DNA of 64,000 nucleotides from Myxococcales bacterium (lineage in GTDB: Bacteria > Myxococcota_A > Polyangia > Polyangiales > DASUME01). The stretch covers positions 8,864,001 through 8,928,000 of the forward strand of contig JASGJH010000001.1 of assembly GCA_047601445.1 (NCBI GenBank). Direction: 5' to 3'. This document shows positions 16,764 to 32,794 of this stretch, piece after piece (positions within the stretch are counted from its first letter, which is position 1; each line of letters begins with the position of its first letter). A program made the position numbers and the translations under genes. The notes beneath the pieces are model-generated. The model worked only from the letters and a program-made list of their open reading frames with translations. It was not told the origin of the DNA and ran no database searches.

Positions 16764-17096
16764 TCATTCGGAGCGGACGTCCATGACGCAGCGCTCGAGC
16801 AGTTTGGCTTGCCCTTCGTCGAGGGCGAGGAACTCGAGACCCGCCTCGAACTGGGCGAAGTCGTCCTGGAGGGGACGCACCCAGGCCACCCGCACCGGGA
16901 CGGTCAGCGAGCCGCCATCGGGCAGGAAGAGCTCGATCTCGAGGCGCTTGCCCACCGTGAGTGAGTCATCGGTCAGGATGCGTACCCCGCCCAGGCTGAG
17001 GTCGCGGGCGGGGCTGCGTGGTCCGAACAGGCGCGCGGGGCGGTAGTACACCGGCACACTGAGGCGCGGAAAGCGTCTGCGTTCGTCGGCCCCCAT
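16764..17096 (-). CDS. Stand-alone PilZ-domain protein
   Basis: ERRRFPR (RxxxR) and DLSLGG (D/NxSxxG) motifs. Confidence 0.88.
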   Translation of the reverse strand: MGADERRRFPRLSVPVYYRPARLFGPRSPARDLSLGGVRILTDDSLTVGKRLEIELFLPDGGSLTVPVRVAWVRPLQDDFAQFEAGLEFLALDEGQAKLLERCVMDVRSE

Positions 17097-17132
17097 GTTT
17101 CCAGAAGTAGAACACGAGACAAGCTGCGTTCG

Positions 17133-18935
17133 CTACCAGCGTCGTCCCGAGCGCAAGAGGACCTCTGCGCTGTCTGCGTCTACGGGTGGGGAAAACAGGT
17201 ACCCCTGCGCGCCTTCGCAGCCGAGCTCTCGCAAGCGCGCTAGCTGCGCTTCGGTTTCCACGCCCTCGGCGATGGCGGGTAGCCCGAGTGCCTTCGACAG
17301 GGTGAGGATGGTGCGCACGATCTCGGCTTGCTGCGAGTCGTCCGTAAGGTGCCGCACGAACGTGAGATCGATCTTCAGGCCGTCGACGCGCGCGCGATGC
17401 AAGTAGCTCAACGACGAGTAACCCGTGCCGAAGTCGTCCAGGCAAACACCCACCCCGCGATCGCGCAGCTCGGTCACCAGGCGCCTTCCGTCTTCGGCCT
17501 CGTCGAGCAACAACGACTCGGTGACTTCGAGCGCCAGACACTGGGGCGCTACGCCGGTGCGATCGAGCGCTTGCACGATGCGCTGAAGGAGCTCTTTGTC
17601 CTCGCGTAGCTGCCGGGTGGAGAGGTTCACGTTGATGCGCAGGGGGCGCTCGCTGGGGACCTGATCCTGCCACTTCTTGAGCTGCGTCAGCGACTCGAAC
17701 AGGATCCAAGCACCGAGCTCGCTGATCAGCCCCGTGTCTTCCGCGAGTGGGATGAAGCTGAGCGGCGACACGAAGCCCAGGGTGGGATGGCGCCAGCGCG
17801 CCAGGGCCTCGAAGCCGGTGATGCTGCCCGTCGCGAGGTCGATCATCGGCTGGTAGTGCACCGTGAGTTGGCCGCGCTCCACGGCCCCGCGCAGGGAGCG
17901 CTCCATGGACGTGCGCTCCACGGCCTTGTCATGCATGTCCGGGTCGAACAGCACCGGCCGGCCCTGGCTCTCCGACTTGCTTTCTCGCGCCGCTTCGCGT
18001 GCTCGGCGCAGGATCTCGTGCGCATCGAACAGGGAGCCATCGCCCAGCACCAGGCCGATGCTTGGGCCCTTCATGAGCTCGCTCCCGCTGGTGGGCATGG
18101 GCGCGAGCAGAGCGCGGCGGATGCGTTCACCCACCGCGAGCGCGTCGGCACTTGCATCGGCGTCCTCCAGCAGGAGCGCGAACTCGTCACTGCCAACTCG
18201 CGCGACGGTGTCGCCCGGGCGCACCGAGCTCTCGAGTCGCGTCGCCACCGACAGCAGCAGCTGGTCGCCGATGCTGCGGCCCAGGCGCTGATTGATGGCC
18301 GTGAAGTCGGCCAAATCCACGAACATCACCGCGAAGCGACGGCTCGGGTTGCGGCCTGCGCGGGCCACCGCGTGGATCACACGGTCGAGGAATAGTCTGG
18401 CGTTGGGGAGGCCGGTCAGGGCGTCGCGGAAAGCCGGCTGCAGGCCACTCTCCACGGGTCCTGGCTGGCTGCTCAGATCGGTCCACCACCCCAGCACCCG
18501 GCCGGCCGGCGAGCTATCGACCGTGTCCCGCCGCGCGTGCACCGACACCCAGCGAAACGAGCCGTCCTCGTGCCTCAAGCGATGCACGCATTCCACCCGC
18601 TCCGTGCGCCCCGCCAAATGGGTATCGAGCAGCTCTCTCAGCGCCCCCAAGTCCTCCTGGTGAACGCGTGCGAACCACGCCTCGGAGGGGCACGGGTTGG
18701 GCGCGCCAGCCAGCAACGGCTGGCTGGCGGGGGTGTAGCGCAGGCGGTCGTTCTCGAGCTCCCACACCCAGGGTCCACTGCCCTCGCGCTGCAGGGGATG
18801 CCGCAGATGCTCTTCGAGGGCGAGCTCCGCCCGGGCCGTGCGGCGGGCGAACAGGCTGGCCAGGATGCCCAGTAGGATTAGCGCCAGCCCGCCACAAGCG
18901 ACCCAGATCACTCCGCCCCCATCGCCCATTCCCAC
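17133..18935 (-). CDS. TM-PAS-GGDEF(GSDEF)-EAL c-di-GMP enzyme, probably a phosphodiesterase
   Basis: PAS3 (VHQED...DGSFRW), DALTGLPN, ARVGSDEF, EALARW, LEVTE, DDFGTGYSS, AEGVET. Confidence 0.9.
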   Translation of the reverse strand: MGMGDGGGVIWVACGGLALILLGILASLFARRTARAELALEEHLRHPLQREGSGPWVWELENDRLRYTPASQPLLAGAPNPCPSEAWFARVHQEDLGALRELLDTHLAGRTERVECVHRLRHEDGSFRWVSVHARRDTVDSSPAGRVLGWWTDLSSQPGPVESGLQPAFRDALTGLPNARLFLDRVIHAVARAGRNPSRRFAVMFVDLADFTAINQRLGRSIGDQLLLSVATRLESSVRPGDTVARVGSDEFALLLEDADASADALAVGERIRRALLAPMPTSGSELMKGPSIGLVLGDGSLFDAHEILRRAREAARESKSESQGRPVLFDPDMHDKAVERTSMERSLRGAVERGQLTVHYQPMIDLATGSITGFEALARWRHPTLGFVSPLSFIPLAEDTGLISELGAWILFESLTQLKKWQDQVPSERPLRINVNLSTRQLREDKELLQRIVQALDRTGVAPQCLALEVTESLLLDEAEDGRRLVTELRDRGVGVCLDDFGTGYSSLSYLHRARVDGLKIDLTFVRHLTDDSQQAEIVRTILTLSKALGLPAIAEGVETEAQLARLRELGCEGAQGYLFSPPVDADSAEVLLRSGRRW

Positions 18936-18988: not shown

Positions 18989-19657
18989 ATGCGGCGTAGC
19001 GAAAAAGCGGAGCGAATCCGCCTCCAGCTCGACGAGCTGTTCCCCGAGGTGCCGATCCCCCTCGATCATCGCGATCCCTTCACGCTGCTCGTGGCGGTGG
19101 TGCTCTCGGCCCAGACCACCGACGCCCGTGTGAACTTGGTTACTCCTGCGCTGTTTGCCCGTGCTCCCACGCCCGAGGCCATGAGCCATCTGAGCGTCGC
19201 GCAGATCCTGGCGTTCATCCGCACCTGCGGGCTGGCCCCATCCAAGGCCAAGAACCTGTTGGCGCTCTCGCAACTCTTGCTGGAGCGTCACGCGGGAGAG
19301 GTGCCGAGGACCTTCGAGGAGCTCGAGGCGTTGCCCGGGGTCGGACACAAGACGGCGAGCGTGGTGATGTCCCAGGCCTTCGGCGTGCCTGCCTTCCCCA
19401 TCGACACGCACATCCATCGGCTCGCCGAGCGCTGGGGGCTCTCGGACGGCAGCAACGTCGTGAAGACGGAGCGGGATCTCAAGGCGCTCTACGCCGCGGA
19501 GCATTGGAACAAGCTGCACCTGCAGTTCATCTACTTCGGGCGCAGCTATTGCCCCGCCCTGCGCCACGACGCGGTCCGCTGTCCTGTCTGCAGCTGGGCC
19601 GCCCCCTCGCGTCGGCGCGGCGCAGCGAGCAAGCGGCGAGTTGCCGACCGCGCGTGA
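18989..19657 (+). CDS. nth: Endonuclease III
   Basis: LVAVVLSAQTTD, HhH LPGVGHKTA, DTHIHR. Atypical C-terminal Cys spacing. Confidence 0.9.
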   Translation: MRRSEKAERIRLQLDELFPEVPIPLDHRDPFTLLVAVVLSAQTTDARVNLVTPALFARAPTPEAMSHLSVAQILAFIRTCGLAPSKAKNLLALSQLLLERHAGEVPRTFEELEALPGVGHKTASVVMSQAFGVPAFPIDTHIHRLAERWGLSDGSNVVKTERDLKALYAAEHWNKLHLQFIYFGRSYCPALRHDAVRCPVCSWAAPSRRRGAASKRRVADRA

Positions 19658-19715
19658 GCCGCGCTACATGGTGCGAAGCCAGCGCGAAGCGCGCGTTGGA
19701 ATTGGAGAGCGACAC

Positions 19716-20156
19716 ATGGCAACGCTACGTGAAATGGTGGCCGACCCCGGCAAGAGGCAGCAGGTCGTGGACGACGCCATCAAGGTCATCGACGCGGAGG
19801 TCTCCGACAAGGGAGGGCTCGGGGGCATGGCCATCAAGGCGGCCTACTCGATGGCGAAGGGAGTCGCGCCCGGCATCATCCAGAAGGTGCTGAACAACAT
19901 GCTCGACGACCTGCTCGGCGCGCTGCAGCCCTACTTCGACGAGTCCAAGGCCAAGAAAGCCGACTTCAAGAATCACGTGGTGGCCAAGGGATCCGACGTC
20001 GCCAACTCGCTCTTGGCGGTCACCGACGCCCGCGCCTCCAGGGCCTCTGGCGGGGCGCTCAAGAAGGGCTATGAGAAGTTGCGCCCGACGGCCCAGAAGC
20101 ACGTGGAGCAGGCCTTGCCGCGGCTGGCCGATCTCGTCACCAAGCACGCCAACTGA
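19716..20156 (+). CDS. Conserved hypothetical helical protein (DUF6918-like)
   Basis: GGAG RBS, host-like codon use, DAEVSDKGGLGG...LLAVTDARA...YEKLRP pattern. Confidence 0.6.
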   Translation: MATLREMVADPGKRQQVVDDAIKVIDAEVSDKGGLGGMAIKAAYSMAKGVAPGIIQKVLNNMLDDLLGALQPYFDESKAKKADFKNHVVAKGSDVANSLLAVTDARASRASGGALKKGYEKLRPTAQKHVEQALPRLADLVTKHAN

Positions 20157-20185: not shown

Positions 20186-20391
20186 TTCGTGAGCGAAGCG
20201 AAACTCGCGCAGGGACCCGGCGCTGTGAGCGAAAGCGAACCTCGCGGTGGGGTGGGACCCGGCGCAGCTTCGCTGCGACGGGCGGGGAGGTCGCGTGACC
20301 TCCCCGTGCAACAGCTGCGACGGGCGGGGAGGTCGCGTGACCTCCCCGTGCAACAGCTGCGACGGCGGGGAGGTCGCGTGACCTCCCCGTG
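20186..20391. repeat. Two-hairpin repeat cluster: partial copy, full copy and tandem ~42-bp hairpin units
   Basis: Unit gctgcgacgggcggggaggtcgcgtgacctccccgtgcaaca starts at 20272, 20314 and 20356 (third has one G fewer and is 3'-truncated). Lies between convergent genes. Confidence 0.9.
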
Positions 20392-20392
20392 A

Positions 20393-20965
20393 CTAAGTCC
20401 AGTCGAGTACGTAGGTGAGCACGTTGTTGTGCATCCACGGGCGCTCTTCGAGGCGCACGGACGGTGCCTTGCCACCCGCGCTCTCCACCACCTCGAGTGA
20501 CCAGCCCATGATGTTGTGCCCCACGCAGGCCGACATATCCGGGAAGCCCGCCAGGTGAATCCGCGCGCCCTTGCGCTCCGGGTTCGCCTCATCTGCGGGC
20601 AACTCGGTCACGGTGATCTCGCCGAAGTTGAAGAGCTCGCGCCAGCGACTGCCCATGTTGTGCAGGGACTCGAGGGGCTTGCCCGGGAGGAACACGCGCT
20701 CGGGTTGCTCGTTGATCAGCGCGCGCGCCGAGGCGCGTCCCATGTTCTGCGCAGCCGCCTCGCTGCCGTCGAACACATAGCGATGCACGATTTGCAGGAG
20801 GCTCTCGAAGACCTGCAGCGAGTACCAGGTAGTCGGAGACACCCGTTTGCGCATCAGGTCCTGTTCCCAGGGGCCGAACTCCGGCAATTGATGGGTGCGT
20901 CGGTGGGCTCGCAATAGCCGCACCACGCCCACCAGATTCGTCCCCCGGACCAGCCGCTCCTTCAT
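20393..20965 (-). CDS. Hypothetical protein resembling myxobacterial DUF2378/TIGR02265 (V4R-like) proteins
   Basis: VRG...WYSLQVF...MGR...W...FNFG...GW...GGK...W pattern. Confidence 0.55.
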   Translation of the reverse strand: MKERLVRGTNLVGVVRLLRAHRRTHQLPEFGPWEQDLMRKRVSPTTWYSLQVFESLLQIVHRYVFDGSEAAAQNMGRASARALINEQPERVFLPGKPLESLHNMGSRWRELFNFGEITVTELPADEANPERKGARIHLAGFPDMSACVGHNIMGWSLEVVESAGGKAPSVRLEERPWMHNNVLTYVLDWT

Positions 20966-20997
20966 CGTGCGCTCATATCATGCGAAAGGCAGCCTGC

Positions 20998-22254
20998 TCA
21001 ACTCGACGACCCCGCGTGCGCGGGCAGGTTCGGGCCGAGCGAGAAGCGCCGCTCCTCGAGGCCGTAGGCCTTGGGGTTCAGCTCCAGCACCGTGTGCAGC
21101 GGGATGCTCACGTGCGGAATCTCCTCGGGTTCTCGGCCCAGAAGATAGCCGTAGATGGCTCGTAGCACCGCTTGATGGCTGATCACCAGCACTGGGCGTT
21201 GCTGGCGCTCCAGCTCGAGCACGACCGGTTCCACCCGTTGGATCACGTCCATGTAGCTCTCGCCGCGTGGGTAGCGATAGCCGAGCTTGTCGCGCGCGCG
21301 CGCTTTCCAGTCGTCGGGGAAGTGCTCCTTGATCTCCTGGTACGTCATGCCGTCGCAGACGCCCGCTTCGATTTCGTTGAGCGCTCGCCACTGCAAGGTC
21401 TGGCGGCCCAGGATCTCGGCGGTCTCGTGGGTTCGCACCAGCGTGCTCGTCCACACCTCCACGCGGCCGTGGGGCGCGATGCGCTCGTCGTAGAAGAGCT
21501 TGAGGTTCTTGGCGTACTCGCGGCCGAGCTCGGAAAGCTGCGTGTTGCCACCGATGCGTTCCACCACGTTGAACTCGGCTTGACCGTGACGGGTGAGCCA
21601 GATGGGGCGCGGCACGTTGTGCAGGTTCACCAGGAACGACACCAGGCGCGAGGGCAGATAGCCCGTGATCTGGTTGACGATCACCTGTCGGCCCACGTCG
21701 ATCAGTTTGATGTAGCTGCCTTCGCTCTCGTCCACCGGCTGGTAGACCTTGGCGTAGTGCTCGATGCGGGCGCGGAAGTCGGCCACCGCCAGATCCGGAT
21801 CGATGCCGGCGTAGTCGGGCGAGTCGAGCTTGGTGGCGCGCACGTTGGCTTCCACGGTGGCTTCGTCGCACAACGACTCCACGAAGATGACGTTCATGCC
21901 TTCGCGCTCGCAGCGCTCCTGGATCAGGCGTCGGCGCTCGCGCGTGCTGTTGGTGGCGTCGTAGATGGCGACCTCGCCGCCGCGCTGGAACCAGCTCACC
22001 ATGTCGTCGAGGGCCATCAGCGCCACGCGGGTACGCTCGCGCACGCCCTCGGGGTTGAGCGGATCGAAGAAGTCGTGGCTGCGCTGGCTGCCCAGGTGCT
22101 CGCGCCGATAGTTGCCCACGTTGAAGAGGCGGGTCGGGTGCCCGAGCCAGTTGAGGTAGCGCGTGATCTTGCGCGCCACGTAGGTCTTGCCGCGAGCCGG
22201 CAGGCCCACCATCACGATGGCGTGGGTGGGGTTGTCGCCGTGAAGGACTGCCAT
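20998..22254 (-). CDS. Bifunctional 6-phosphofructo-2-kinase/fructose-2,6-bisphosphatase (PFKFB-type)
   Basis: Kinase domain MVGLPARGKT, RYLNW, FNVGNYRR, DATNSTRERR, SPDY, YIKLIDVG. Histidine-phosphatase domain TRHG, RIGG, LNEI, YRYPRGESY, ELERQ, SHQAV, PLHTV, PKAYG. Confidence 0.93.
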   Translation of the reverse strand: MAVLHGDNPTHAIVMVGLPARGKTYVARKITRYLNWLGHPTRLFNVGNYRREHLGSQRSHDFFDPLNPEGVRERTRVALMALDDMVSWFQRGGEVAIYDATNSTRERRRLIQERCEREGMNVIFVESLCDEATVEANVRATKLDSPDYAGIDPDLAVADFRARIEHYAKVYQPVDESEGSYIKLIDVGRQVIVNQITGYLPSRLVSFLVNLHNVPRPIWLTRHGQAEFNVVERIGGNTQLSELGREYAKNLKLFYDERIAPHGRVEVWTSTLVRTHETAEILGRQTLQWRALNEIEAGVCDGMTYQEIKEHFPDDWKARARDKLGYRYPRGESYMDVIQRVEPVVLELERQQRPVLVISHQAVLRAIYGYLLGREPEEIPHVSIPLHTVLELNPKAYGLEERRFSLGPNLPAHAGSSS

Positions 22255-22403
22255 GCTCGAAGGATAGGAGGGAGAAACGCCGCGCGCACCTTGGGGGCGA
22301 GCGGGCGAGGGGGGCGTCGGAGTGAATCGGGTAGGGCGGTGTAACCATCGGCGTGACGCGGAACGGCTGACCTCGCACGATCCACGTCAGACGGCCCCTT
22401 CAA

Positions 22404-23441
22404 TCAAAGCCCTGCATGAGGCCGCTCGAGCGTCGAGAGGTGTTCGATCACGAGCTCGCCCATGCTGCGGCAGCGGCGAAAGCTCGCTAGCCCATAGTGC
22501 TCGGCCATCTCTTCGGCGAGCTGGTTCACATGCTCGGCCGGCGCAATGTCGTCCTGGGCCATCACCGACAGCAGATCCTCGAGCCGCCCGCCCGAGGACT
22601 TCACGCGGCGGCGGATCAAGGAGCGCTCCTCCAGCTGATACTGCCGCACCGTCTCGCGCGACATGCACTTGATGCCGAGGAAGATGATGGGATTGTTCTG
22701 CTTGAAGTACTGGGGCAAGTACACCTGGCGCTTGCCCTCGTAGCTCTGCTGGTCGAAGTCGATGGCCCGCAGGCGATAGGTGGTCTCCTCGAAGTCGGGC
22801 GTGATGTCGATCACGAAGTTGGCCGAGTGCATGTCGCCGAGCAGGCGCAAGAAACAGCGCTCGTTGAACTTCACGAACTCCTTCGCCAGGCGCACTTCGT
22901 CGAGGTGTCGGTCGCTCAAGTAGCTGCGGATGAACATGTTGCCCGGGATGCCCGAGATGTGCTCCTCCACCAGCGTGTCACGGTCGTATAGGAACGTGAT
23001 CACGTTCGGCGACAACATGTGCTCGAGTTCCAAACCATAGAGGCGCGAGGCATCGGCGCGCTTGACGTAAAAGTAGTCGAAGTTGTCGTTGAGCGTGTTG
23101 ACGATGCGGACCCGAAAGGGCTGCGTGTTGCCGTAGGTGCACAGGTCGACTCGATCGACCACCAGGTGCTCGAAAGCGTCGGTCTCGCCGCCCGTCTTCA
23201 TCTGGGCGTAGATCTGCATCAAGCCGTCGCGGACCTCGCGTTGATCTTGTGCCGAGTACAGCACGCTGACCCACAGCGTGTCGCGGCCCGCCTTGTCGTA
23301 GAGGGGGATGGCCTGCTCGTAGCGCAAGAGGTCGTCGTAGCGCACCGGGAGGCGCACGCTGCGGTCGTACTGGGTCAGGTACGCGGCGAAGGCGGGCCGG
23401 GCGGCATAGATGCGTTTCTTACGCGAAATCAGGTGGGGCAT
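22404..23441 (-). CDS. Hypothetical protein with atypical kinase (PI3K/PI4K/HipA-like) catalytic motifs
   Basis: FYVK, LVEEHISG, LLGDMHSANF, RAIDFDQ in kinase order. Confidence 0.6.
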   Translation of the reverse strand: MPHLISRKKRIYAARPAFAAYLTQYDRSVRLPVRYDDLLRYEQAIPLYDKAGRDTLWVSVLYSAQDQREVRDGLMQIYAQMKTGGETDAFEHLVVDRVDLCTYGNTQPFRVRIVNTLNDNFDYFYVKRADASRLYGLELEHMLSPNVITFLYDRDTLVEEHISGIPGNMFIRSYLSDRHLDEVRLAKEFVKFNERCFLRLLGDMHSANFVIDITPDFEETTYRLRAIDFDQQSYEGKRQVYLPQYFKQNNPIIFLGIKCMSRETVRQYQLEERSLIRRRVKSSGGRLEDLLSVMAQDDIAPAEHVNQLAEEMAEHYGLASFRRCRSMGELVIEHLSTLERPHAGL

Positions 23442-23551
23442 GGCCAGCGGCTATGGTCTGATGACACGCGCGAGCGGGCAAGCCCCTCGCGACGGCCTGG
23501 GGCGAGCGGGCAAGCCCCTCGCGCCGCCGCGTGCCGCCCCGGGGGGACCCG

Positions 23552-24154
23552 CTACCAGCTCGTGTAGGGCAACTTGTGCCCCACCGTCTCGGCGGCCTGC
23601 TGTCCCTCGATGAGCTGCGCGATGGGGTCCCATTCGCCGCGCACCAGGGCGTCGCGCGCGCTCTGCTTGATGCTGCACGGGTAGCTCTTGCCGCCCGCAC
23701 GCACCTCGAGCTTCTCGAGATCCACGCTGATCTCGAGCTTGGGATCGCGCTCGATGGCGGCAGCCAACTCGGCGATCTCCGCGCGCTTGAGGCTCACGCA
23801 GGGGATGCCCAGCGTGGTGCTGTTGCCGAAGAAGATCTCGGCGAAGCTCTCCGCGACTACGGCGCGGAAGCCGGCCTTGTGGATCGACTGGGGCGCGTGC
23901 TCGCGCGAGCTGCCGCAGCCGAAGTTGCTGCCACTCAGGAGCACCTTGGCGCCCACGAAGCGGGCGTCGTTGAGCGCGTGCTGCTTGGGGGTTCCGTCAC
24001 GCTCGAAGCGTGCGTCGTAGAACAGCTGGCCGCCGAGCGCGTCGAAGGTGACGCACAACAGGAAGCGCGCGGGGATGATCTGGTCGGTGTCGATGTCGTC
24101 ACCCGCCACGTAGGCGCCGGTGCCGCTGACCTGCTTGATCTGTTCGAGTGCCAT
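23552..24154 (-). CDS. leuD: 3-isopropylmalate dehydratase small subunit
   Basis: DIDTDQIIPARFL, NFGCGSSREHA, SFAEIF. Confidence 0.93.
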   Translation of the reverse strand: MALEQIKQVSGTGAYVAGDDIDTDQIIPARFLLCVTFDALGGQLFYDARFERDGTPKQHALNDARFVGAKVLLSGSNFGCGSSREHAPQSIHKAGFRAVVAESFAEIFFGNSTTLGIPCVSLKRAEIAELAAAIERDPKLEISVDLEKLEVRAGGKSYPCSIKQSARDALVRGEWDPIAQLIEGQQAAETVGHKLPYTSW

Positions 24155-28812: not shown

Positions 28813-30049
28813 TTACGCCCCAGTGTTGCGCTTTGACGGGCGGTTGGATGTGCTCGCGCTGGAGGTGGTGCTGGCGACGCCGGACGCCATCGAACGTGTG
28901 GTCGAAGGGCCGGCGAGGGGCTCGCGCGCCTCCACGTTCACCATCACCCCACTGCGTTCGAGCTGAGGCGGAATCGAAACGATCACCCGATTACCGCCGG
29001 CGCGCTTGGCCGCGTAGGCCTCGGCATCGGCGCGCCGCAACAACGACGCCACGTCGTCATCGGCGCGAGCCATGGTCAAACCTACGCTCGCGGTGACGGG
29101 GGTTTGCGACCAACGCTCCTTGCCGACCCGTTCCACGGCCTGCACCACGCGCTCGGCCACCGGCAGGAAGCCGTCGACTGCCGAGATCGGGTAGCACTAC
29201 CACGAATTCGTCGCCGCCGTAGCGGGCCACCAGGTCCACGGCTCGCGTCTCATTCGTGAGCGCGTTGGCGATGTCCATCAAGAGCAGGTCGCCTGCATCG
29301 TGACCGAGCTCGTCGTTCACGCGCTTGAACCCGTCCAGGTCGATCATCATCACCCCGCAGCGGGCCCCCCGCGCCACCCGGTCGAGTTGTCGCCGGAGCT
29401 CGTTCAAGAGGTGGCGGCGATTGAACAGGCCAGTTAGCTCGTCCAAGTGGCTGAGCTCCGCGAGCCGCTGGTTCATGCGATCGAGGGCCAACATCTGGCG
29501 CAGAACGATGCTCGTGCTCATCAGCACGCTCATGGCCACCAGGGTGCCGCTGGCCACCAGCTGGGGCAAAGGCGGCAGGGGCTGCGGGCGGGCTGGCGCG
29601 TACTGAAAGAGGTTCAGCGCGCAGAGCAAGAGCAAGCCCACGTAGACCACCGAACCCAGGGCCGCCAGGCGCATCGAGACGCGGGAGCGCGACAGGGAAG
29701 ACGCCGCGTTCACGACCGGGATCAATAGATAGAGGAAGGGCACCACGCTGGAGGCCGCGCCGAGCAGGTACACCACGTAGGTCAGGAAGGCGATGTCGAC
29801 GATTCCCATGAAGAGACTGCGCCGATCGCCCGCGGCCCAGCTCTTGTGGATCATCCACTGAAAGATCAGCGCGATGACCAGGTTCAGGACGAACACCCCG
29901 TGGGTCTGGGTCATCCCCGGGAAGACGCTGTCCGCGAACGTGACCGCGGCCATGGCGAACGCCACGCGCACCAAGCCCGCACGGCGACTCGCGCTATGCC
30001 GGCGATCGATTCGACTGTGGGCGGCGGCAATCACGGCGGACAGGCTCAA
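28813..30049 (-). pseudogene. Membrane diguanylate cyclase (GGDEF), split by one extra base at ~29181 (possibly a sequencing error; ~411 aa if repaired)
   Basis: Several TM helices, DELTGL, RAVD I-site, RYGGDEF. The domain end (VTASVG, RRADAEAYAAKRAGGN) lies in ORF 28813..29160. Deleting one base gives PDLAVDGFLPVAERV. Confidence 0.8.
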
Positions 30050-30231: not shown

Positions 30232-31596
30232 ATGACCGAGCTTCGTTTCGTTTTGGGGACGTTGGAGTTGCGTGGGCTGTCACGCAATCAGATCGCGCTG
30301 CCCGAAGGGGTCAGCTGGGATCCGCGCTCCGAGTGCTACCGCGCAGAAGCCCGTTTGTACGCCGATTTGCTGCGGGTCCTGGTGCGCTCCGGGACGCCCT
30401 ACGAGGATCTGGCCCGCGCCTATGCGGAGCTGACAACTCCCGTTGTCGTGGCGCGCGAACCGCGGCCCTATCAGCGCGAGGCCCTCACGGCTTGGGAGCA
30501 GGCGCGCAGCGCGGGAATCGTAGTGCTGCCCACAGGTGCCGGAAAGTCGCAGTTGGGCGTGATGGCGATCGAAAAAAAGCGCCGCAGTACCCTCGTCGTG
30601 GCGCCGACCCTCGACCTCGTACGCCAGTGGTACGACCTGCTCAGAACGAGCTTTGGAACCGAGGTCGGTATCGTCGGCGGGGGCGAACACCGGGTCTTGC
30701 CGCTCACCGTAACCACCTACGATTCCGCGTATCTGCACATGGAGAACCTGGGCAACCGGTTCGGCTTCGTGATCTTCGACGAGTGCCACCACTTGCCGAG
30801 CGAGAGCTACGCCATGGCGGCGCGCCAGTGCCTGGCCCCCTTCCGCCTCGGGCTGAGCGCTACCCCCGAGCGCGCCGACGGTCGCGAGGAGCTCCTGCGC
30901 GGCCTGGTGGGCAACACGGTGTACCGCCGAGAGATCGTCGAGATGAGCGGCGAGTATCTGGCCGAGTACGAGACCGAGCGACTGGCAGTTTCCTTCTCGC
31001 CGGAGGAGCGCGCCGAATACGAAGCCGAGCGAGCGATCTACCTGGCCTTCGTGCGGGCCCAGGGCATCCAGATGGGATCACCGCAGGGCTGGGGCGAGTT
31101 CATCATGCGCTCCTCGCGCAGCGAGCAGGGGCGGCGCGCGATGCGGGGCTACCGACGCCAGCGTGAGCTGATGTTCGCGGCGCCGGCCAAGCTCGACTAT
31201 GTGGAGGAGCTGTTGCACCAGCACCGCCGGGAGCGCTCCATCGTGTTCACCCAGGACAACGCCACGGCCTACGCCATCTCGCGACGCCTGCTGATCCCGG
31301 CCATCACGCACCAGACCAAGGTGAGCGAACGCAGCGAGATCCTCACGCGGCTGAACGGCGGGGTGTACTCGGCGGTGGTGACCTCCAAGGTCCTGAACGA
31401 AGGCGTGGACGTGCCCTCGGCCAGCGTGGCCATCGTGGTTTCGGGCAGCGGCTCGGTGCGCGAGCATGTCCAGCGGCTGGGCCGCATCCTGCGCAAGCAG
31501 GGCGACAAGCGCGCCATCCTCTACGAGCTCATCACGGCCAACACCGGGGAAGCCTTCACCAGCGAACGCCGGCGGGAACACAGTGCTTACCGCTGA
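30232..31596 (+). CDS. XPB/Rad25-like SF2 DNA helicase
   Basis: PRPYQ, LPTGAGKS, DECHH, GLSATPER, VLNEGVDVP, QRLGRILR. Confidence 0.9.
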   Translation: MTELRFVLGTLELRGLSRNQIALPEGVSWDPRSECYRAEARLYADLLRVLVRSGTPYEDLARAYAELTTPVVVAREPRPYQREALTAWEQARSAGIVVLPTGAGKSQLGVMAIEKKRRSTLVVAPTLDLVRQWYDLLRTSFGTEVGIVGGGEHRVLPLTVTTYDSAYLHMENLGNRFGFVIFDECHHLPSESYAMAARQCLAPFRLGLSATPERADGREELLRGLVGNTVYRREIVEMSGEYLAEYETERLAVSFSPEERAEYEAERAIYLAFVRAQGIQMGSPQGWGEFIMRSSRSEQGRRAMRGYRRQRELMFAAPAKLDYVEELLHQHRRERSIVFTQDNATAYAISRRLLIPAITHQTKVSERSEILTRLNGGVYSAVVTSKVLNEGVDVPSASVAIVVSGSGSVREHVQRLGRILRKQGDKRAILYELITANTGEAFTSERRREHSAYR

Positions 31597-32794
31597 CCTG
31601 GTGCGCACCCGAAAGAAGGGCGGGGAGCTCTTCGTCACCGAGCTCAGCGACAAGCTGCGGCCGCGCGCGCTCGAGCTCGCGCAGGACTACGTGGCGTTGG
31701 CCGAGGCCCACGTGGGGGCGAGCCGCGCCGAACTCGAGGAGGCCTGGGAGGGGGTCAAGGTCGGCGCCAGTGAGCGGAAGCTGGCGCTCGGACTGTGCAA
31801 GCTGGTGGAAGACCGCGTGCAGTTCGACGTGCAGAGCGAGCTCGATCCGCGCCTTCTGCGCAGCGAGGTGTTCGAAGCGGCCGCCGCCGAGCGCGCGGCC
31901 GTGAGCGACGACGGGAGCTTCGACCGCTCGGCGTTCTTGGCAGGGCAAGCTGCCCAGCGCGGGCTCACGCCAGAGCAGCTGGAGCGCGCGCTCTACGCCG
32001 ACCTGCGTGGCGCCCAGATCTTGACCGGCTTCGACGGCATCAACCCCGAGCACCTGGTTCGCCACTACGATCTGGCGCAGAAGCAGGCCGTTTTCCTGCG
32101 GGCTGTGGCCGTGGTCGCCGAGGTGCGTTGCCGCGACCCCTACGCGTACCGGACGTTGTTCCGCAAGCTCAAGTTCTTCCGCCTCATGCACCGCATCGAG
32201 GCGCGTCCCGACGGCTATCTGATCTCCATCGACGGTCCCTTCAGCCTATTCAGCGCGTCCACCAAGTACGGGCTCGAGCTGGCGCTGGCGCTGCCGGCCC
32301 TCTTGAGCTGCGACGAGTTCGACATTCGGGCCCAGCTGCGTTGGGGCAAGGAGCGCGAGGCCCTCAGCTACAAGCTCACCGGCAAGGGCCGTTCGGACGG
32401 CGCGAAAGAGGTCGCCCTGCCTGACGAAGTCGCAGCGTTCTTGGCGCGCTTTCAGGCACTCGAGTCGGAGTGGGAGGCCGAGGTCTCGAGCGACATCCTG
32501 GAGGTCCGAGGCGTGGGCCTCTGCGTACCCGATCTGCGCTTCGTGAGCCGCGAGACCGGTGAGATTGCCTACCTGGAGGTGCTCGGTTATTGGAGCCGCG
32601 ATGCCGTCTGGAAGCGAGTCGAGCTGGTGGCGAAGGGGCTCAAGGAACGCGTGATTTTCGCGGCCTCGAGCAAGCTGCGCGTGAGCGAGGAAGTCATCGA
32701 CGGGAACGTCCCGAGCCAGCTTTACATGCACAAGGGAACACTCTCGCCCAAGGAAGTTCTGCGGCGCCTTTCGGGGGGGGCCGCGAGCCAGTAG
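31583..32794 (+). CDS. DUF790/Bax1-family endonuclease
   Basis: GTG start overlapping the helicase. ALYADL, IDGPFSLF...KYG, and PD-(D/E)xK-type VPDL...YLEVLGYW. Confidence 0.8.
   Translation: MLTADLVRTRKKGGELFVTELSDKLRPRALELAQDYVALAEAHVGASRAELEEAWEGVKVGASERKLALGLCKLVEDRVQFDVQSELDPRLLRSEVFEAAAAERAAVSDDGSFDRSAFLAGQAAQRGLTPEQLERALYADLRGAQILTGFDGINPEHLVRHYDLAQKQAVFLRAVAVVAEVRCRDPYAYRTLFRKLKFFRLMHRIEARPDGYLISIDGPFSLFSASTKYGLELALALPALLSCDEFDIRAQLRWGKEREALSYKLTGKGRSDGAKEVALPDEVAAFLARFQALESEWEAEVSSDILEVRGVGLCVPDLRFVSRETGEIAYLEVLGYWSRDAVWKRVELVAKGLKERVIFAASSKLRVSEEVIDGNVPSQLYMHKGTLSPKEVLRRLSGGAASQ

What the first reader, a model, noticed from the sequence alone, without database searches (positions are those of the whole stretch)
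20998..22254. Eukaryote-type PFK-2/FBPase-2 in a bacterium: possible fructose-2,6-bisphosphate signalling
Seen: a 418-aa protein with both PFKFB domains in eukaryotic order and the catalytic motifs intact (P-loop GLPARGKT, DATN, RHG phospho-His, LNEI Glu, SHQA His), without long regulatory tails. Codon usage looks host-like and the neighbours are bacterial, which argues against contamination. Established: Fru-2,6-P2 is the allosteric glycolysis/gluconeogenesis switch of eukaryotes and is generally regarded as absent from prokaryotes. I recall scattered deltaproteobacterial homologues but not a demonstrated role. Inference: this organism may make Fru-2,6-P2, through an old transfer from a eukaryote or as a relative of the ancestral enzyme.
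Basis: partly seen in the sequence, partly recalled or inferred. Interest (0 to 1): 0.8.

Follow-up and report, generated by a model that had tools for sequence, protein, structure and literature searches.

The report
Myxobacterial fructose-2,6-bisphosphate enzyme gene
A large-genome myxobacterium carries an intact copy of the two-domain enzyme that eukaryotes use to make and destroy the sugar signal fructose-2,6-bisphosphate; the gene is long established in this bacterial phylum and already annotated in relatives, but its role there is untested.

Summary
Window 20998-22254, on the minus strand, encodes a 418-aa protein with a 6PF2K kinase domain followed by a histidine-phosphatase domain.

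It is not contamination. The genome is a single 9.5-Mb contig, the gene's GC3 matches its neighbours, and 8 of 10 genomes of the genus have it. So do 82 of 401 sampled genomes of the phylum (Myxococcota, judging by relatives' names) and at least 581 prokaryotic species genomes. Catalytic and substrate-binding positions are kept in 33-35 of 35 bacterial copies. dN/dS against near kin is 0.04-0.15.

The enzyme most likely makes and hydrolyses Fru-2,6-P2. Its target is inferred only. This genome has a class-I FBPase and two single-domain ATP-PFKs. In seven genomes of two other families the gene lies back to back with a PPi-type PFK.

The origin is unresolved. The tree backbone is a polytomy, and a single bacterial clade is not rejected (p-AU 0.53).

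The family is already named in NCBI records of relatives, a bacterial exception is cited in print, and this scan has noted the family before on another genome. It is a new member of a known kind whose bacterial function is unstudied.

The parts
20998..22254 (-). [quoted passage not shown]
   Evidence: Single copy in the genome.
21613..22227 (-). Kinase (6PF2K) domain, residues 10-214
   Evidence: Pfam PF01591, E 5.6e-77.
22183..22206 (-). P-loop GLPARGKT, residues 17-24
   Evidence: G17-K23 are kept in 35 of 35 bacterial rows; T24 in 33, with Ser in 2.
21055..21603 (-). Bisphosphatase (His_Phos_1) domain, residues 218-400
   Evidence: Pfam PF00300, E 1.2e-38. The isolated rat FBPase-2 domain chains 1c7z and 1fbt match at E about 2e-57.
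21583..21591 (-). RHG motif, residues 222-224, with the presumed phospho-acceptor His223
   Evidence: Kept in 35 of 35 bacterial and 43 of 43 eukaryotic rows.

Best explanation
The gene encodes a true, selectively maintained bacterial member of the PFK-2/FBPase-2 (PFKFB) family. It lies in the chromosome of a Polyangiales-type myxobacterium and was inherited within that phylum.

Inferred mechanism: the N-terminal domain transfers the gamma-phosphate of ATP to O-2 of fructose-6-phosphate, giving fructose-2,6-bisphosphate. The C-terminal domain hydrolyses it back through a phospho-His223 intermediate. The protein lacks the N- and C-terminal tails that carry the phosphorylation switches of animal, yeast and plant isoforms. 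The balance of the two activities would therefore be set by metabolite levels or by expression.

Most likely downstream effect in this genome, and a weaker inference: competitive inhibition of the single class-I fructose-1,6-bisphosphatase. In other myxobacterial lineages the partner may be a PPi-dependent phosphofructokinase encoded back to back with the gene.

Shown: domain architecture, motifs, conservation, purifying selection, distribution, and presence of candidate targets. Inferred: the two activities, the product, and any regulatory role.
For: Architecture and full-length similarity to solved PFKFB enzymes. A bird PFKFB3 representative is 50% identical (name).

I mapped residue positions from the PFKFB3 alignment; their roles are recalled from the PFKFB3 and rat testis structure papers. 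Counts are over 35 bacterial rows. Kinase side: K23, R50, D99, T101, N102, K142, R163 and Y167 in 35 of 35; R107 in 34; R74 and T24 in 33. Phosphatase side: R222, H223, G224, N229, R274, E294, Y305, R319, K323, Y334, H360 and R365 in 35 of 35.

dN/dS (NG86) is 0.041, 0.150 and 0.123 against homologues that are 93%, 83% and 81% identical.

Candidate targets: the genome has one class-I FBPase, no GlpX and two PFKs. Fru-2,6-P2 inhibits FBPase competitively at the active site (passage of PMC6400660). 74 of 82 genomes with the gene also have a class-I FBPase, against 138 of 319 without it.

In 7 genomes (3 genera in families f41 and f35) a PPi-type PFK lies divergently within about 50-300 bp of the gene (coordinates; tblastn). 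It carries GGDD and PKTIDND, and scores 547.3 bits on NCBIfam PFKA_PPi_Ttgales against a cut-off of 550.
Against: No enzyme assay or metabolite measurement exists for any bacterial member that I could find (paper searches).

Both PFKs of this genome are single-domain bacterial types of 336 and 379 aa. They lack the duplicated half that forms the Fru-2,6-P2 site of eukaryotic PFK-1.

No PPi-type PFK was found in this genome with the L118 query at E <= 1e-60. All bacterial PPi-PFKs characterised so far are reported to be non-allosteric (passage of PMC12203962).

A class-I FBPase was not found in 8 of 82 genomes that have the gene, including 3 of 3 genomes of one genus that are 94-95% complete. 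Five of those 8 were tested further and also lack GlpX.

PPi-PFK is not enriched among carriers: 19 of 82 against 99 of 319.

Gene neighbours in this window are conserved only in near kin and say nothing about sugar metabolism.
Confidence: 0.75

Rival explanations
1. The protein keeps the fold but acts on other substrates. It could be a broad sugar-phosphate phosphatase or kinase used for repair or salvage, so Fru-2,6-P2 is not made or has no regulatory role.
For: IMG labels the family 'broad specificity phosphatase PhoE/predicted kinase'. No NCBIfam model reaches its cut-off; the best is ribazole_cobC at 103.8 bits against 162.9. This genome has no known Fru-2,6-P2-responsive type of PFK.
Against: The positions that bind Fru-6-P and the 6-phosphate of Fru-2,6-P2 in solved PFKFBs are kept in 33-35 of 35 bacterial copies. 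That is at least as strictly as in the 43 eukaryotic rows. The match to PFKFB chains (E 1e-120) is far above the matches to cobC and PspA-type phosphatases (E 1e-12 or weaker).
Confidence: 0.12
2. The bacterial family is a single ancient acquisition from a eukaryote, and the N-terminal extension was lost afterwards.
For: Eukaryotes of all supergroups sampled carry the gene. Among prokaryotes it is rare: at least 581 of 185,579 species genomes, and 0 of 14 control genomes over the cut-off. In FastTree the Polyangia-type rows sit beside stramenopile and plant forms that carry an N-terminal carbohydrate-binding module (CBM). A single bacterial clade is not rejected.
Against: No supported branch nests the bacteria inside any eukaryotic group in the careful tree. 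The position of red algae and Rhodelphis relative to bacteria changed with taxon sampling. No root was inferred.
Confidence: 0.5
3. The bacterial clade is as old as the eukaryotic one or older. Myxococcota were the donor of the eukaryotic enzyme, or both descend from a common ancestor.
For: A tree with all 35 bacterial rows as one clade is 0.84 log-likelihood units better than the free tree, with p-AU 0.531. The gene is spread over many families of the phylum. Red algal enzymes find Myxococcota as their next-best hits, at 52-56% identity; the one plant listed, Tanacetum, is at 45%.
Against: The same unresolved backbone fits the opposite direction equally well. The gene is missing from most families of the phylum: 319 of 401 genomes have no match over the cut-off. 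I found no close single-domain bacterial relatives of the kinase half; sub-cut-off hits cover only the P-loop region.
Confidence: 0.2
4. The gene is an assembly chimera or a eukaryotic contaminant.
For: None beyond its eukaryote-like identity. CheckM-type contamination of the genome is 5.43%.
Against: The genome is one contig of 9,502,601 bases. GC and GC3 match the host. The same upstream and downstream genes flank it in three related genomes. 8 of 10 genomes of the genus have it.
Confidence: 0.01

Closest known systems
Animal PFKFB1-4 (solved: 6IBZ, 2AXN and 4D4J human PFKFB3; 1BIF rat testis; 1K6M liver; 5HTK and 5HR5 PFKFB2)
   Same: Same two domains in the same order, aligned over about 394 residues at E 1e-120. 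About 50% identity to a bird PFKFB3. All catalytic and substrate-binding positions are shared.
   Different: No N- or C-terminal regulatory tails: 418 aa against 432-531 in the solved chains. The host is a bacterium without a duplicated eukaryote-type PFK-1.
Plant, stramenopile and Rhodelphis F2KP with an N-terminal carbohydrate-binding module
   Same: Same catalytic core. In FastTree these are the nearest non-bacterial groups to the Polyangia-type clade.
   Different: They carry 150-600 extra N-terminal residues with an AMPK1_CBM/CBM20-type module, which the window protein lacks. The grouping is not supported in the careful tree.
Annotated homologues in Sorangium cellulosum, Sandaracinus amylolyticus, Minicystis rosea, Chondromyces, Polyangium and Byssovorax
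   Same: Same length class (about 405-452 aa) and architecture, at 56-60% identity. NCBI names them '6-phosphofructo-2-kinase/fructose-2,6-bisphosphatase'. They form a clade of 14 rows with the window protein, supported at 99/92.
   Different: Different gene neighbourhoods. None has been characterised biochemically in the papers I could search.
Desulfovibrio desulfuricans exception cited by Rider et al. 2004
   Same: A bacterial occurrence acknowledged in print (passage of PMC9721465).
   Different: I could not read Rider et al. 2004 or Michels and Rigden 2006; neither is held. I did not retrieve that sequence.
Earlier finding of this scan, e1-4790067 (marine myxobacterium)
   Same: Same family, read as an intact bacterial PFK-2/FBPase-2.
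   Different: Another genome and another operon context. It shares only 3 of 110 short words with this protein.

Membership tests
PFK-2/FBPase-2 (PFKFB) | N-terminal 6PF2K domain over Pfam's gathering score | tested here: met
   PF01591 at residues 10-214, 258.5 bits against a cut-off of 27.
PFK-2/FBPase-2 (PFKFB) | C-terminal histidine-phosphatase (branch 1) domain on the same polypeptide, after the kinase | tested here: met
   PF00300 at residues 218-400, 133.2 bits. FBPase-2 domain chains 1c7z and 1fbt match at E about 2e-57.
PFK-2/FBPase-2 (PFKFB) | Kinase P-loop GLPARGKT and the DATN motif | tested here: met
   Residues 17-24 and 99-102. Kept in 33-35 of 35 bacterial rows.
PFK-2/FBPase-2 (PFKFB) | Fru-6-P-binding and catalytic residues of the kinase site (roles recalled from structure papers) | tested here: met
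   R50, R74, T101, R107, K142, R163 and Y167 are present. They align to the corresponding residues of human PFKFB3 and are kept in 33-35 of 35 rows.
PFK-2/FBPase-2 (PFKFB) | Phosphatase catalytic set (RHG His, Glu, second His) and Fru-2,6-P2-binding residues (roles recalled) | tested here: met
   R222, H223, N229, R274, E294, Y305, R319, K323, Y334, H360 and R365 are kept in 35 of 35 bacterial rows.
PFK-2/FBPase-2 (PFKFB) | Measured 2-kinase and 2-phosphatase activities; Fru-2,6-P2 as product | not testable with these tools
   Needs an enzyme assay.
PFK-2/FBPase-2 (PFKFB) | Head-to-head homodimer through the kinase domains | not tested
   No complex prediction was run. It would pass by likeness to solved structures.
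Eukaryotic Fru-2,6-P2 signalling system | Regulatory N- or C-terminal extensions with phosphorylation sites on the enzyme | tested here: not met
   Only about 10 residues lie before the core and 18 after it.
Eukaryotic Fru-2,6-P2 signalling system | A responsive PFK: duplicated ATP-PFK-1, or a Fru-2,6-P2-activated PPi-PFK | tested here: not met
   The genome's own PFKs are 336 and 379 aa. They match only part of the 744-position eukaryotic PFK-1 model (TIGR02478, 6PF1K_euk), far under its cut-off. No PPi-type PFK was found in G000. A PPi-type PFK does lie beside the gene in 7 genomes of other families.
Eukaryotic Fru-2,6-P2 signalling system | A class-I FBPase, the enzyme type that Fru-2,6-P2 inhibits | tested here: met
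   One class-1 FBPase, NF006778 at 495.4 bits against a cut-off of 368. Its sensitivity is untested.

The most novel reading that the evidence does not exclude
Fru-2,6-P2 is a working metabolic regulator in Myxococcota, acting on class-I FBPase and, in some lineages, on the PPi-PFK encoded next to the gene. The bacterial clade is not a late borrowing. It is as old as the eukaryotic enzyme or is its source, which would fit proposals that myxobacteria-like partners contributed genes to early eukaryotes.
Probability: 0.15. Interest if true: 0.85.

Novelty: new member of a known kind. Interest (0 to 1): 0.5.

Why it matters
Fru-2,6-P2 is taught as a eukaryote-only switch between glycolysis and gluconeogenesis. 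Here an intact, strongly constrained copy of its enzyme sits in a complete bacterial chromosome. It belongs to a family spread through about a fifth of the sampled genomes of one phylum, including culturable strains of Sorangium, Sandaracinus and Chondromyces. That makes the question of whether any bacterium uses this signal directly testable with standard assays. The back-to-back pairing with a PPi-dependent PFK in some lineages points to a concrete first target to try. If the signal is active, it adds one more eukaryote-like regulatory layer to myxobacteria and bears on where the eukaryotic enzyme came from. If it is not, the family is a well-conserved enzyme in search of a substrate.

Tried and rejected
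- Sequencing runs: none was listed for window 20300-23500 and no RNA holder was listed.
- Promoter and terminator scan of 20300-23600: 0 promoter-like sites, and 2 terminator-like sites against 1.3 expected. No clear Shine-Dalgarno sequence lies before the ATG. Not informative.
- Synteny as a clue to function: the order of 345-aa gene, PFKFB, 190-aa gene and DUF6918 recurs only in near kin (L034, L035 and L036; L054 in part). It appears in none of 29 phylum loci. The neighbours have no sugar-metabolism domains.
- A Ser/Thr kinase upstream of the Sorangium gene is orthologous only in 13 Sorangium loci and, 3 kb away, in Chondromyces. The other hits are paralogues.
- Co-occurrence with PPi-PFK: no enrichment, 19 of 82 against 99 of 319.
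- NCBIfam: no model reached its cut-off.
- Phylogeny for the direction of transfer was not decisive. FastTree with 115 rows put the bacteria beside CBM-type eukaryotes. A quick IQ-TREE with 86 rows put red algae and Rhodelphis inside a mostly bacterial clade and left the window row, without its near kin, in a polytomy. A second set of 78 rows moved the red algae away. The careful tree is a polytomy of 71 rows.
  - Rows left out of the 78-row set: long or compositionally odd rows (P0250, P0255, P0264, P0232, P0267, P0223, P0187, P0183 and P0160); further unnamed representatives from the 86-row set (P0132, P0171, P0191, P0198, P0206 and P0207); and the fragmentary or multi-stretch hits.
- Papers: Rider et al. 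2004 is not held, whether asked for by DOI or by PMC id. Michels and Rigden 2006 was seen only as a citation. Seven full-text searches found no study of a bacterial PFK-2/FBPase-2. That covers only the held open-access library.
- The contamination or chimera reading was rejected.

Full report
**Observation.** The stretch 20998-22254 holds an ATG-to-TGA ORF of 418 codons on the minus strand. Pfam finds a 6PF2K domain at residues 10-214 (E 5.6e-77) and directly after it a His_Phos_1 domain at 218-400 (E 1.2e-38). Twelve distinct solved PFKFB sequences match at E 1.3e-120 to 1.2e-118 over about residues 8-405. They include human PFKFB3 and PFKFB2, bovine PFKFB2, rat testis and a liver chimera. 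The isolated rat bisphosphatase domain matches at about 2e-57, and ordinary cobC and PspA-type phosphatases only at 1e-12 or weaker. Homologues of exactly 418 aa cover 100% of the query. This supports the ATG at 22254 over the upstream GTG at 22378.

**Not an artefact.** The window lies in a genome held as one contig of 9,502,601 bases (completeness 98.68, contamination 5.43), with a single copy of the gene. GC over the gene (0.654-0.658) and GC3 (0.87) match the surroundings. The neighbours are ordinary bacterial genes: a leuCD-like aconitase-family pair, a LysR regulator, PAS-GGDEF-EAL, PilZ and an ECF sigma factor. The same upstream 345-aa and downstream 190-aa genes flank the gene in three related genomes, whose copies are 93%, 83% and 81% identical. 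8 of 10 genomes of the genus have the gene. The two without a match are fragmented assemblies, 72% and 94% complete.

**Who else has it.**
- The nearest proteins come from Polyangiales or Polyangiaceae metagenome bins. At 56-60% identity come Sorangium, Sandaracinus, Minicystis, Byssovorax, Polyangium and Chondromyces. Several carry the NCBI name '6-phosphofructo-2-kinase/fructose-2,6-bisphosphatase', whereas IMG calls them 'broad specificity phosphatase PhoE/predicted kinase'.
- In an even sample of the phylum, 82 of 401 genomes have a match over the Pfam cut-off. It is nearly universal in some families (f24 28 of 29). In others nothing reached the cut-off: f3 had 1 sub-cut-off match in 23 genomes, and f21 had 3 in 34.
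The best 80 are all of this Polyangia type. Four of the 80 carry non-myxobacterial bin labels, which I did not check.
- None of 14 well-known control genomes reaches the cut-off.
- This scan had already noted the family in a marine myxobacterium (e1-4790067).

**Is the enzyme likely active, and on what?** I mapped positions from the alignment to human PFKFB3. Their roles are recalled from the PFKFB3 and rat testis structure papers, not from a tool. I then counted them in 35 bacterial and 43 eukaryotic rows.
- Kinase side: K23, R50, D99, T101, N102, K142, R163 and Y167 are kept in 35 of 35 bacterial rows, R107 in 34, and R74 and T24 in 33.
- Phosphatase side: R222, H223, G224, N229, R274, E294, Y305, R319, K323, Y334, H360 and R365 are kept in 35 of 35.
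- The eukaryotic rows vary at least as much, which is expected because some isoforms are monofunctional.
- dN/dS (NG86) against the three near homologues is 0.041, 0.150 and 0.123. For 60%-identical pairs dS is saturated and the ratio means little.

Together these results argue that both sites are under selection for the canonical substrates. No assay supports this yet.

**What could it act on?**
- The genome encodes one class-I FBPase (NF006778, 495 bits), no GlpX, and two PFK-family proteins of 336 and 379 aa that score as bacterial ATP-PFKs. They lack the duplicated half in which eukaryotic PFK-1 binds Fru-2,6-P2 (passage of PMC12203962).
- Fru-2,6-P2 inhibits FBPase competitively at the active site (passage of PMC6400660). 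That review's reference list names a 2007 structure paper on mammalian and bacterial FBPase with this ligand. I saw only its title.
- Class-I FBPase is therefore the most plausible target here. In the phylum sample 74 of 82 carriers also have a class-I FBPase, against 138 of 319 non-carriers. Relatives are not independent, so this is only weak support.
- Against it, 8 carriers show no class-I FBPase, including all three genomes of one genus. Five of the 8 were tested further: they also lack GlpX (0 of 5) but have PFK-family genes (5 of 5).
- That check turned up a second lead. In G238 a PFK gene lies divergently beside the PFKFB gene on the same contig. It has the GGDD and PKTIDND motifs (the PPi-type signature, as I recall it) and scores 547.3 bits on NCBIfam's PPi-PFK model, just under the cut-off of 550.
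- The same back-to-back pair occurs in 7 genomes: G238 (f35), G068 and G128 (f41, one genus), and G093, G148, G173 and G213 (f41, another genus). This follows from the coordinates and was confirmed by tblastn for L114, L118 and L126. These are 7 of the 19 genomes that have both genes.
- PPi-PFK is the plant enzyme that Fru-2,6-P2 activates, so the pairing ties the bacterial gene to the Fru-6-P/Fru-1,6-P2 step.
- It is not general. PPi-PFK is no commoner in carriers (19 of 82) than in non-carriers (99 of 319). The window's own genome gave no match, and none of the 80 Polyangia-type loci (flanks of up to 6 kb) holds a PFK gene.

**Origin.**
- At 50% clustering, the named neighbours of the query are nearly all eukaryotic. 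Names recovered were Phytophthora, Cantina, Rhodelphis, a legume, Volvox, Podila, Sodiomyces, a bird PFKFB3, Drosophila, Bombyx, Acytostelium, Dermamoeba, Pygsuia, Reticulomyxa and Ploeotia, plus one further Myxococcota cluster.
- Several neighbours carry an N-terminal AMPK1_CBM-type module.
- Red algal enzymes, searched in turn, find Myxococcota as their next-best hits at 52-56% identity. The one plant listed (Tanacetum) is at 45% and the one fungus listed (Dimargaris) at 51%.
- The trees disagree with one another on deep branches. The careful IQ-TREE (78 rows, LG+C20+F+G4 PMSF) leaves 71 rows in one polytomy of about nine bacterial and six eukaryotic lineages.
- What is supported is local. 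The window protein sits in a clade of 14 rows with Sandaracinus, Sorangium and Minicystis (99/92). Opisthokonts form their own clade (100/98). No supported branch puts bacteria inside any eukaryotic group.
- Holding all 35 bacterial rows together gives a tree 0.84 log-likelihood units better than the free search, with p-AU 0.531. One bacterial clade, and hence one ancient event in either direction, is compatible with the data but not shown. No root was inferred.

**Comparison and novelty.** By every sequence feature I could test, this is a member of the PFKFB family. It differs from characterised members in lacking regulatory tails and in living in a cell without a eukaryote-type PFK-1. The family's presence in bacteria is already recorded in database names. 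It is also cited in print as an exception for Desulfovibrio desulfuricans (passage of PMC9721465 citing Rider et al. 2004). I could read neither that review nor Michels and Rigden 2006. Seven full-text searches of the held library found no functional study of a bacterial copy. I therefore rate it a new member of a known kind, with moderate interest. The gene itself is not a discovery. The breadth and constraint of the bacterial family, and its pairing with PPi-PFK in some lineages, make bacterial Fru-2,6-P2 signalling a concrete and testable question.

Noticed in passing
window 22404-23441 (-): The 345-aa gene just upstream has no Pfam match even at E 10. It belongs to a very large family that is about 60% identical between Myxococcota (Plesiocystis, Enhygromyxa) and Bacteroidota (Fulvivirga, Marinoscillum), with G202-D203-M204-H205, N208 and I227-S233 (IDFDQQS) invariant in 16 rows. 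An AlphaFold model (pLDDT 76) finds PI3K, PI4K and VPS34 kinase domains as best PDB matches, but weakly (Foldseek E 1e-4, TM 0.35-0.39). It may be an unnamed kinase-like family.
   Followed up: partly
L114 (G128), L118 (G238), L126 (G148); also G068, G093, G173, G213: A PPi-type PFK (GGDD, PKTIDND; 547.3 bits on PFKA_PPi_Ttgales against a cut-off of 550) is transcribed divergently from the PFKFB gene in 7 genomes of families f41 and f35.
   Followed up: partly
G000:C1:5917748-5918755 (-), outside the window (L031/L130): One of the genome's two ATP-PFK homologues has GGNGS where PFKs normally have GGDGS, so the Mg-ATP Asp is replaced by Asn. The same change is in 9 of 9 orthologues that contained the motif region (8 in the genus including this genome, and one in family f4).
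   Followed up: partly
window 20393-20965 (-): The 190-aa gene 32 bp downstream of PFKFB has only a weak DUF2378 hit (E 0.04). It and a DUF6918 gene (19641-20156, +) follow PFKFB in four related loci.
   Followed up: partly
L040-L055 (Sorangium genomes), e.g. L047:3890-5263 (-): In 13 Sorangium loci a eukaryote-like Ser/Thr protein kinase lies divergently about 0.7 kb upstream of the PFKFB gene. In the Sorangium chromosomes listed the gene sits about 50 kb from the start of the record. Outside Sorangium only Chondromyces has the orthologue nearby.
   Followed up: partly
P0127, P0336, P0366, P0368, P0159 (red algae): After other red algae, red algal PFKFBs find Myxococcota proteins as next-best hits (52-56% identity). 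The one plant listed is at 45%. Their position relative to the bacteria changes between trees.
   Followed up: partly
window 30232-31596 (+) and 31466-32794 (+): An XPB/RAD25-type helicase with a damage-recognition domain is followed by a DUF790 protein. The ORFs as called overlap by about 130 bases.
   Followed up: no
window 16764-18935 (-) and 29057-30049 (-): A PilZ protein lies next to a PAS-GGDEF-EAL protein, and a second, membrane-bound GGDEF protein lies further on. This is c-di-GMP signalling near the gene.
   Followed up: no
L013, L020, L122: In three phylum loci the open frame holding the PFKFB core runs 400-725 residues further upstream. These could be N-terminal fusions or just stop-free high-GC sequence.
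   Followed up: no
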